Shown here: in pieces, positions 523-56,735 of the stretch
How positions within the stretch are numbered: the first letter of the stretch is position 1
Layout: the number at the start of each line of letters is the position of its first letter
Source of the DNA: Octopus vulgaris
Taxonomy: Eukaryota
DNA: 64,000 nt
Assembly: GCA_951406725.2 (NCBI GenBank)
Contig: OX597835.1
Location: 44,826,001 to 44,890,000, forward strand
Direction of reading: 5' to 3'
Translations under genes and position numbers: made by a program
The notes under the pieces: model-generated
The model's input: only the letters and a program-made list of their open reading frames with translations
Databases searched by the model: none
Told to the model about the DNA's origin: nothing

Positions 523-1174
523 ACAGATGATACAAAAGAAGGACAAGAAAGAACACGGACGGGTCATTTGAGGTTTTATTTCTTCAGTCGAGTTCCAGAT
601 TATCTTTGCAATTTGGGCTGGTTTTATTCGAGATTGCTCCAATCTGGTCAGCCCCAAGGAAAAACTAACCTAAGAGCATTAGATTTCTTGGAAGAAAGCA
701 GCGAATGTTTACGAAAACAAGGAAGGGAAAAAACGTAGAAATGGTACACAAAGACAAATGCAAATAACAGGACATTAACAACAGGTGTCTTTCGACTAAA
801 GACGAATTAAATTAAGCTGGCGTGTGTGGAAATGAAGCCTAACGACAGAGACATAGGAGATGACAGGCATGGGGAGGAATATAGATGTTGCACGGATGGT
901 AGTCGAACTAAGAAAGAAAGGTCAGGCTTGGCCGAAACCGGTCATGTGGAGAGAGATGAGAGACGAAGAGGCAGAGGGTTGGAAGAATTAGGGAGGGATG
1001 AGAGAAAGAAAAAGGAGAGAGTGAAGTGAAAGAGGAAGGAAGATGGGAATGAAGAGGAAACCAGAAATTGTGAGCGAGGGGAACAAAAGAAAGGAGAGTG
1101 GAAAGAACGAAGTATGTTTGAAGGGCCTGATAGAAAGAAAGAAAGAAAGAAAAATGAAAGAATAAGAGAATCGT

Positions 1175-3954: not shown

Positions 3955-4737
3955 AATTACAAATGAGAGGTTAGTCGATCCCATCGTTCTCATTACCACA
4001 GCGGCACGGTATTTTATGAACCCATGAAAAATCAAAATCGACACCTACGGAAATTGAACTCAGTAACTAATGCATCAAAAGAAGTACATCAAGGTATTTT
4101 GTCTGACACTTTAGCGGTACTCGTTTTTTTTCTGTAGGCACAAGTCCCGAAATTTTGGGGGAAGGTGTCAATCGATTAGATTGACCCCAGTACGTAACTG
4201 GTACTTAATTTATCGACCACGGAAGGATGAAAGGCAAAATTAACCTCGGTGGAATTTGAAGTCAGAACGTAATGATTGACGAAATACCGTAAAGCATTGC
4301 GCCCGGCATACTAACGTTTCTTATTTCTTTATTGCCCACAAGGGGCTAAACGTAGAGGGGACAAACATGGACAGACAAAGGGATTGAGTTGATTACATCG
4401 ACCACGGTACGTGAATTGTACTTATTTAATCGACCCCGGAAGGATGAAAGGCTAAATCGACCTCATCGGAATTTGAACTCAGAACGTAACGGCAAGCGGA
4501 ATACCTATGTCTTTACTACCCACAAGGGGCTAAACACAGAGGGGACAAACAACGACAGACAAACGGATTAAGTCGATTACATCGACCCCAGTGTATCACT
4601 GGTACTTAATTTATCGACTCCGAAATGATGAAAGGCAAAGTCGACCTCGGCGGAATTTGAACTCAGAACGTAACGGCAGACGAAATACCTCTAAGCATTT
4701 CGCCCGGCGTGCTAATGTTTCTGCCGGCTCGCCGCCT
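3955..4737 (-). mobile_element. Cluster of 3-4 tandem SINE copies (family D, Nin-domain-like core)
   Basis: Repeated CTGGTACTTAATTTATCGACCCCGAAAGGATGAAAGGCAAAGTCGACCTCGGCGGAATTTGAACTCAGAACG. The tRNA-like B-box (GTTCAAATTCC on minus) and head GGCGGCGAGC end at ~4737. Confidence 0.85.
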
Positions 4738-55879: not shown

Positions 55880-56274
55880 CCACACATGAAAATTGAACAA
55901 AGAGACGAACTCTCGAGATGTTCTTAACCCCTTTATATCTTGAATCCTCTTTTACGTATGTTTCGACGGATGCACTCCAAATTGTTCGGCAGGATGAATA
56001 AACGGTCAGCAATGCATCAATCACATCGGAAGGGATATAAATGACAAATTCATCAAACAGACATGTTAACAGGAACAGAAATGTCCTGTAAAACGTAAGG
56101 CATTTATATTCATGTGCACACACGCCAACACACGCTCAAATATGTGACCTGTAAATATACACATTACATACCTACAAAAATGCACAAAAATACGCACACT
56201 TATACATACACATATACATAGATACACATTAATATACATACAGATTCACAAAAATATAGTCGTATTATACATAT

Positions 56275-56325
<51 letters not shown>

Positions 56326-56381
56326 TATAAGAAAAATAAAAACAGAAAATTCGCATAGTATAATTATAGTATAATTTTTAA

Positions 56382-56418
56382 TGTATCGACCGGTTTCGCA
56401 ATCGCTATTCATGATACA
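56382..56418 (-). ncRNA. Minimal type I hammerhead ribozyme motif, A3:U8 variant (intact)
   Basis: UGUAUC AUGAAUA GC gauu GC GAAA CCGG UC GAUACA. Helix I is a perfect 6 bp, helix III is palindromic ACCGGU, cleavage triplet is GUC. Confidence 0.75.
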
Positions 56419-56454
56419 ATGTTTAATTTATATGAAAATATATTTTCTTAAGAA

Positions 56455-56584
<130 letters not shown>

Positions 56585-56585
56585 C

Positions 56586-56629
<44 letters not shown>

Positions 56630-56735
56630 TATATGTTTGTTTGTTTGTTTGTTTTTCCATAGCTCTTAAGCTGTATGCTGGGGCACCGCCATATATATAG
56701 CCTCGTATATATATATATATATATAATTGCGCCTC

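What the first reader, a model, noticed from the sequence alone, without database searches (positions are those of the whole stretch)
56382..56418. 37-nt ultra-minimal A3:U8 hammerhead in an island between (TA)n tracts
Perfect 6 bp helix I, AUGAAUA core, 2 bp helix II, GAAA, ACCGGU palindrome and a GUC triplet in 37 nt. The motif is the only structured sequence in a ~135 bp island (56326-56460) bounded by long (TA)n. The palindromic helix III predicts intermolecular (dimer) cleavage.
Basis: partly seen in the sequence, partly recalled or inferred. Interest (0 to 1): 0.75.

Follow-up and report, generated by a model that had tools for sequence, protein, structure and literature searches.

The report
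Penelope hammerhead with A-U core pair
The flagged 37 bases are the hammerhead ribozyme motif in the tail of a Penelope-type jumping gene with hundreds of copies in this genome; the family carries an A-U pair where the usual core has C-G, is predicted to cut only as a pair of molecules, and this lone truncated copy is likely inert.

Summary
The motif is real and lies on the minus strand (56418→56382). It is not a unique island: the 136-bp segment is the 5'-truncated 3' end (pLTR) of a Penelope-like retroelement (RT, CX5CXXC linker, C-terminal GIY-YIG; Neptune/Nematis type) inserted in (TA)n. Its 17-mer has 168 exact copies (control 0). A3:U8 is fixed in the family (21 of 21 motifs at loci picked by the coding region), and helix I covaries across related families. 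Unconstrained co-folding of three sister A3:U8 copies gives exactly the double hammerhead. Dimer-type minimal hammerheads in Penelope pLTRs, 2-bp helix II and U3:A8 are published; A3:U8 was not found in the papers I could search. Genome-wide, ACCGGU-type motifs use all four Watson-Crick 3:8 pairs (U:A 11,567; A:U 1,794; C:G 188; G:C 173), so the textbook core is about 1%. Cleavage is untested, copies show no pile-up of 5' ends at the predicted cut, and no intact element was found. The scan has noted A3-U8 before on other DNA (a likely frog Penelope family, a phage). Verdict: new variant of a known kind.

The parts
56326..56461 (-). 5'-truncated 3' end (pLTR fragment) of a Penelope-like retroelement, Neptune/Nematis type
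   Evidence: Matches other genomic copies over positions 2-136 at 91-93%; longer copies continue upstream into GIY-YIG and RT coding sequence; private changes 3' of the ribozyme versus copy L041
56382..56418 (-). Minimal type I hammerhead motif, A3:U8 core
   Evidence: Sequence; identical 37-mer at 15 of 30 distinct sites in L001-L030
56413..56418 (-). Helix I 5' arm UGUAUC
   Evidence: Pairs with 56382-56387; all 6 pairs show double-sided changes across 23 motifs
56406..56412 (-). Core strand A3 U4 G5 A6 A7 U8 A9 (A3 = 56412, U8 = 56407)
   Evidence: A3 in 83 of 85 and U8 in 86 of 86 aligned copies; 21 of 21 motifs at coding-region-picked loci
56398..56405 (-). Helix II, G10.1-C11.1 and C-G with GAUU loop (GAUA, GAAA, GAAG in sister subfamilies)
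56389..56397 (-). G12 A13 A14 and palindromic helix III A15.1-CCGG-U16.1
   Evidence: Sequence; forms a 6-bp intermolecular helix in the double-hammerhead model
56388..56388 (-). C17; predicted cleavage 3' of it (between 56388 and 56387)
   Evidence: Inferred from hammerhead numbering; not tested
56382..56387 (-). Helix I 3' arm GAUACA
56266..56329 (.). (TA)n at the element's 3' end, likely the insertion target
   Evidence: TRF; 45 of 99 copies run directly into (TA)n at this point
56461..56634 (.). (TA)n at the truncated 5' end, likely the other half of the target
   Evidence: TRF

Best explanation
This is the minimal type I hammerhead motif at the 3' end of a Neptune/Nematis-type Penelope-like retroelement family, with an A3:U8 pair fixed in place of C3:G8; it is predicted to cut after GUC only when two copies pair through ACCGGU, and the window copy is a 5'-truncated solo remnant in a (TA)n target that is likely inert. 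Shown: the family, its RT/linker/GIY-YIG coding region, the motif about 265 nt after the stop and again about 170-190 nt before the ORF start (tandem pLTR layout), fixation of A3:U8 and helix I covariation. Inferred: a read-through transcript of a tandem element holds two sense copies that form a double hammerhead; cutting would release unit-length RNA that could be circularised; reverse transcription would be primed at TA-rich microhomology 65 or about 125 nt downstream of the cut, giving the (TA)n-flanked, 5'-truncated and inverted copies. The A-U pair likely keeps the 3:8 geometry at a lower rate (recalled from mutagenesis papers I could not open).
For: 168 exact 17-mer copies, control 0. 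Upstream homology runs to GIY-YIG (Pfam E 2e-7 and 4.8e-6, above cut-off), a CGRPNCGTC linker and RT (RVT_1 E 0.004, below cut-off) in RT-then-EN order. A3:U8 in 98 of the first 100 of 213 pattern matches with 3 and 8 left free and 21 of 21 motifs at 20 of 20 loci picked by coding DNA. Genome-wide A3:U8 1,794 vs control 333, A3 with non-U8 617 vs control 847. Helix I: 77% of cells paired, covariation 0.54 vs 0.16 shuffled, 0 of 500; A3:U8 arm sets 2.84 vs 2.0 pairs, 0 of 5000. Unconstrained co-fold equals the double hammerhead for 4 of 7 copies tested (L132, L123/L119, L130, L093 sequence types; 5 of 7 rows). Motif in the same orientation just upstream of the ORF start in 7 of 16 stretches, EN-motif-ORF-start junctions in L328 and L331. 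Same layout and dimer model published for PLEs (PMC4209133).
Against: No cleavage data. 5' ends of 99 copies do not pile up at the predicted cut: 2 within 2 nt, among 15 ends spread over -21..+35. 3' ends lie downstream of the cut, so a linear cleaved RNA is not the template. For the window's own subfamily a dimer through GCGAUUGC (-20.6) beats the double hammerhead (-18.1), and the monomer MFE pairs A3-U16.1. No intact element with two motifs flanking an open ORF in 16 stretches. Published PLE minimal hammerheads cleave weakly even as dimers (PMC4209133). Related sequences can beat shuffle controls without structure (tool caveat).
Confidence: 0.72

Rival explanations
1. The fold is kept by the element, but as a dimerisation or RT-recognition signal rather than as an active nuclease; the hammerhead shape is retained while cutting is negligible.
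For: No 5' end pile-up at the cut; weak in vitro activity of PLE minimal hammerheads and the authors' own caveat about other functions (PMC4209133); weak A-U core pair, 2-bp helix II, no tertiary contact identified.
Against: Catalytic positions G5, A6, A9, G12-A14, A15.1, U16.1 and H17 accompany the motif across families with unrelated helix I, and 3:8 stays Watson-Crick in all four forms; that pair matters in the active conformation (PMC3884650, passages). The core letters were imposed by my patterns, so only the excess over reversed-pattern controls counts.
Confidence: 0.2
2. The motif is a decayed relic: A3:U8 arose by AT-biased drift in a founder element and was copied passively.
For: Copies mutate after insertion; within one young family conservation shows nothing about selection; the family looks largely dead; one A3:U8 match (L121) is a degenerate copy of a U3:A8 family picked up by the pattern.
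Against: A3 goes with U8 and not with other bases (1,794 vs 617 for three letters, the latter at control level); A3:U8 persists across subfamilies whose endonucleases differ down to 57-74% identity while helix I changes compensatorily; within the family the common subfamily differences fall outside the core, including a G-C to A-U change at pair 2.5/1.5.
Confidence: 0.06
3. The window copy itself is a functional, host-adopted ribozyme.
For: Its 37-mer is intact.
Against: Identity to 15 of 30 sites is what a young insertion gives; no second family copy in the 64-kb window; monomer fold is non-productive.
Confidence: 0.02

Closest known systems
Minimal hammerheads (min-HHR) of metazoan Penelope-like elements, including the U3-A8 variant of Schistosoma Cercyon (Cervera and de la Pena 2014, PMC4209133; read: main text parts 1-2 of 4, supplement file 2 parts 1-2 of 3)
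   Same: Type I, in pLTRs, palindromic helix III, G10.1-C11.1, mostly solo or inverted copies 100-700 bp apart, dimer-dependent model, non-C:G pair at 3:8.
   Different: A3:U8 instead of C3:G8 or U3:A8 (none of the 56 rows of Fig. S3 has A3; two have U3-A8, one U3-G8; no cephalopod); helix II only 2 bp, no extra base after A9, 4-nt CCGG insert.
Small PLE-associated hammerheads that cleave as dimers (Lunse, Weinberg, Breaker, RNA Biol 14:1499; seen only as a title in a reference list and as summarised in PMC6765202 passages; paper not held)
   Same: Reduced stem III, PLE association, dimer cleavage.
   Different: Cannot say whether that collection includes A3:U8; not read.
Neptune/Nematis Penelope-like elements (Craig et al. 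2021, PMC8557442; passages and supplement rows)
   Same: C-terminal GIY-YIG with CX2-5CxxC linker, (TA)n targets, 5' truncation, partial tandems, inverted 5' copies, optional tail.
   Different: Tail here is about 60 nt (paper: 30-40 bp, for Naiads); core variant not in the rows searched; Neptune versus Nematis not resolved.
Natural 3:8 covariants and 2-bp stem II hammerheads (Perreault et al. 2011, PMC3088659; section 8 and passages)
   Same: 3:8 stays Watson-Crick; stem II of two pairs is described as common.
   Different: Reports U3-A8 only in the text read; here A3:U8 and G3:C8 are fixed in whole element families.

Membership tests
Hammerhead ribozyme (type I) | Core C3UGANG8A, GAAA, UH | tested here: inconclusive
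   All positions met except 3 and 8, which are A and U: the literal consensus is not met, the Watson-Crick pair is
Hammerhead ribozyme (type I) | Helix I closing the 5' and 3' ends, with covariation | tested here: met
   6 bp; 6 of 6 pairs with double-sided changes in 23 motifs
Hammerhead ribozyme (type I) | Helix II with G10.1-C11.1 | tested here: met
   2 bp; G-C in 17 and G-U in 2 of 23; no compensatory change seen
Hammerhead ribozyme (type I) | Stable helix III in a monomer | tested here: not met
   Only A15.1-U16.1 around CCGG, +1.1 kcal/mol; supplied in trans by the palindrome, as in PLE min-HHRs
Hammerhead ribozyme (type I) | Rfam hammerhead model match | tested here: not met
   No hit at gathering or E<=10
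Hammerhead ribozyme (type I) | Self-cleavage 3' of H17 | not testable with these tools
   Only contigs available; no 5' end pile-up in genomic copies
PLE minimal hammerhead | Located in pLTRs of a Penelope-like element | tested here: met
   265 nt after the EN stop in L065; just upstream of the ORF start in 7 of 16 stretches
PLE minimal hammerhead | Palindromic helix III allowing a double hammerhead | tested here: met
   ACCGGU; double hammerhead -18.1 vs -10.0 for two monomers; is the co-fold MFE in 5 of 7 rows but not for the window sequence
Neptune/Nematis Penelope-like element | RT followed by C-terminal GIY-YIG endonuclease | tested here: met
   (GIY-YIG above cut-off; RVT_1 below cut-off on a fragment)
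Neptune/Nematis Penelope-like element | CX2-5CxxC linker upstream of GIY-YIG | tested here: met
   CGRPNCGTC in L062-L064 translations; definition from PMC8557442
Neptune/Nematis Penelope-like element | RT phylogeny placing it in Neptune or Nematis | not tested
   No reference RT set was aligned
Non-LTR retrozyme | Short non-coding tandem repeats, each with a hammerhead | tested here: not met
   Copies are truncated pieces of a coding element

The most novel reading that the evidence does not exclude
Penelope-like elements of this genome have largely left the textbook C3:G8 core: whole families have fixed A3:U8, U3:A8 or G3:C8, they are active dimer ribozymes, and CUGANGA-based searches miss about 99% of the ACCGGU-type hammerheads here. 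The families form a natural panel in which the 3:8 pair tunes cleavage rate and is coupled to the cleavage-site base (G3:C8 families use A17, avoiding a G3-C17 trap).
Probability: 0.4. Interest if true: 0.55.

Novelty: new variant of a known kind. Interest (0 to 1): 0.36.

Why it matters
It extends natural covariation at the hammerhead 3:8 pair to A-U (and G-C) in multi-copy animal retroelement families, shows that standard descriptors undercount PLE hammerheads in this genome by up to two orders of magnitude within the ACCGGU class, and gives a ready set of natural variants to ask whether PLE hammerheads are selected to cut or only to fold. The single window copy matters little.

Tried and rejected
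Rfam: no hammerhead hit. Plus-strand reading: no core. Expression: no RNA holder listed on record; contigs of four coded runs cover the pLTR but cannot show ends or strand, so no evidence either way. 5' ends at the cut: no pile-up (the cluster at 146 nt is an artefact of the two reference copies). Intact full-length element: none in 16 stretches (the N-terminal query was translated off-frame and served only as a position marker). Endonuclease tree (40 fragments of 65-118 aa, midpoint root): A:U rows group apart from U:A and G:C rows, but support is weak and L119 is mislabelled by a neighbouring element, so no order of 3:8 changes is claimed. 3:8 covariation in alignment A1 was not counted because my patterns imposed it. 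Helix I pairing was not above shuffles within the G:C (10) and C:G (8) arm sets. A general 'no 3-17 pair' rule fails: U3:A8 families often have A17. Literature: A3-U8, A3U8, G8U+C3A, 'positions 3 and 8' found nothing relevant; U3-A8 gave only PMC4209133. Lunse 2017, Przybilski and Hammann 2007, Nelson and Uhlenbeck 2008a/b and Martick and Scott 2006 were not held, supplement file 1 of PMC4209133 was not searchable and bioRxiv supplements are closed; any of these may already report A3:U8.

Full report
Observation. The 37 nt at 56382-56418 read, on the minus strand, as a type I hammerhead: helix I (6 bp), AUGAAUA core, GC-GAUU-GC helix II, GAA, palindromic ACCGGU, C17 and the 3' arm of helix I. 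(TA)n arrays lie at 56266-56329 and 56461-56634. A relaxed descriptor (4-bp helix I, any Watson-Crick 3:8 pair, 2-bp helix II, palindromic helix III) hit the window once, here, and 0 times in 60 resampled windows. The single strand is not unusually stable (z 0.19) and Rfam has no hammerhead match.

It is a repeat. The window lies in a 2.8-Gb genome that looks octopus-like (my recall of its SINEs, and earlier scan notes; not tested). The island matches other copies over positions 2-136 at 91-93% (40 of 1,276 candidates scored). The exact 37-mer is at 15 of 30 distinct sites in L001-L030. No second family copy lies in the window.

The parent element. Homology among copies extends upstream to variable lengths, the pattern of 5' truncation. 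[quoted passage not shown] By the definitions in PMC8557442 (passages) this is a Neptune/Nematis-type Penelope-like element; I did not build an RT tree. The motif lies 265 nt after the stop in L065 and, in the same orientation, about 170-190 nt before the ORF start in 7 of 16 stretches; L328 and L331 show endonuclease, motif, ORF start in a row, a head-to-tail junction. Of 99 copies picked by a pattern downstream of the motif (99 distinct sites from the first 100 of 499 matches), 45 run directly into (TA)n at the point where the window copy ends, 51 continue into a tail of about 60 nt and 3 are neither (crude pattern classes). So the island is a truncated pLTR that split a (TA)n target. No intact element was found.

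A3:U8 is a family trait. With positions 3, 7 and 8 free, 213 matches were found; of the first 100 all have A3 and 98 have U8. At 20 of 20 loci picked by coding DNA, 21 of 21 motifs have AUGAAUA. In the 99-copy set A3 is in 83 of 85 and U8 in 86 of 86 aligned copies; variants at 10% or more inside the 37-mer fall at 2.6, 2.5, loop position 4 and 1.5, with 2.5/1.5 going from G-C to A-U. Genome-wide, with N-UGA-N-N-A, 6-22 nt and GAAACCGGUH: A3:U8 1,794 (reversed control 333); A3 with A, C or G at 8, 617 (control 847); U3:A8 11,567 (82); C3:G8 188 (39); G3:C8 173 (62); all non-A3 13,974 (717). C3:G8 is thus 188 of 13,722 Watson-Crick matches. These are match counts, not families; they can double-count, cover only the ACCGGU palindrome, and most U3:A8 families were not assigned to an element type. 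U3:A8 motifs with the same 2-bp helix II sit behind endonucleases 59-65% identical to ours, G3:C8 motifs behind ones 32-36% identical.

Structure. In 23 motifs with an 8-nt helix II region (alignment A1; window copy plus 22 from L086-L186), helices I and II were not constrained by the search: 77% of cells pair, all 6 helix I pairs change on both sides, covariation 0.54 versus 0.16 shuffled (0 of 500) and at most 0.16 for slid partners; helix II shows no compensatory change. Among 48 distinct arm pairs the mean is 2.62 of 4 pairs versus 1.54 shuffled; significant within A:U (19) and U:A (11) sets, not within G:C (10) or C:G (8). Related sequences inflate such tests. The double hammerhead of the window sequence is -18.1 kcal/mol against -10.0 for two monomers, and is the unconstrained co-fold minimum in 5 of 7 rows (L132, L123, L119, L130, L093); for the window's GAUU-loop subfamily a dimer through GCGAUUGC is 2.5 kcal/mol lower, and for L182 another fold wins. 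The A3 monomers fold with A3-U16.1 paired and C17 bulged, a predicted off state.

Mechanism. Inferred, following the model in PMC4209133 (main text parts 1-2 of 4): a transcript through a tandem element carries two sense motifs that pair through ACCGGU and cut after GUC; the unit RNA may be circularised; reverse transcription starts downstream of the cut at TA microhomology, which fits copies whose 3' ends lie beyond the cut and whose upstream pLTRs extend past it. The same picture would arise from uncut RNA. Against cleavage leaving a mark: 2 of 99 copies begin within 2 nt of the cut, among 15 starts spread over -21 to +35. Inverted pairs put the motifs on opposite strands and cannot dimerise in one transcript. 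The window copy is alone and likely inert. RNA data were uninformative.

Known versus new. Dimer-type minimal hammerheads in PLE pLTRs, their solo and inverted copies and a U3-A8 variant are published (PMC4209133; dimer summary in PMC6765202 passages); 2-bp stem II and natural U3-A8 are in PMC3088659. None of the 56 motifs in Fig. S3 of PMC4209133 has A3; two short A3 core words had no hit in the supplement of PMC8557442; full-text searches for A3-U8 and variants found nothing relevant. Lunse et al. and the 3:8 mutagenesis papers were not held, so priority is uncertain, and that A-U supports reduced activity is recalled, apart from the statement in PMC3088659 that covarying 3:8 pairs are active in vitro. 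Earlier scan notes report A3-U8 in a likely frog Penelope family and in a phage; I did not check them.

Verdict. Real motif, new variant of a known kind. PLE hammerhead identity about 0.95; active as a dimer in the parent element about 0.7; this copy functional about 0.02. Interest 0.36.

Noticed in passing
L039:1450-2900 (minus), L148-L154, L159-L161: A 359-360-bp tandem repeat with one ACCGGU-type hammerhead per unit (4-bp helix II), retrozyme-like; most arrays have C3:G8, the L039 array has U3:A8. It accounts for most canonical C3:G8 matches listed.
   Followed up: partly
G000, one search list (L175-L186): G3:C8 families exist; about 90 of the 100 listed matches have A17, 8 U17 and 2 C17 (counted by eye), which would avoid a G3-C17 pair.
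   Followed up: partly
G000, one search list: U3:A8 ACCGGU-type motifs number 11,567, about one per 240 kb, in several unrelated families; most were not assigned to an element.
   Followed up: partly
window 905-950 (+): A second GAAACCGGTC preceded by a 5-bp hairpin but without a recognisable core strand; possibly a decayed motif of another family.
   Followed up: partly
L089:1500, L110, L173: An abundant repeat with C-U at 3:8, no helix I and the same GAAACCGGTC; probably not a type I hammerhead.
   Followed up: no
L063:1-2124 (+): Long open frame that looks like a Helitron Rep protein start, next to a family copy (resemblance recalled, not tested).
   Followed up: no
window 4322-4690: Two tandem 184-bp copies of a common SINE-like repeat.
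   Followed up: no
L061:4337-4907: 572-bp perfect-type palindrome inside a rearranged near-full-length copy of the element, with the upstream pLTR inverted.
   Followed up: partly
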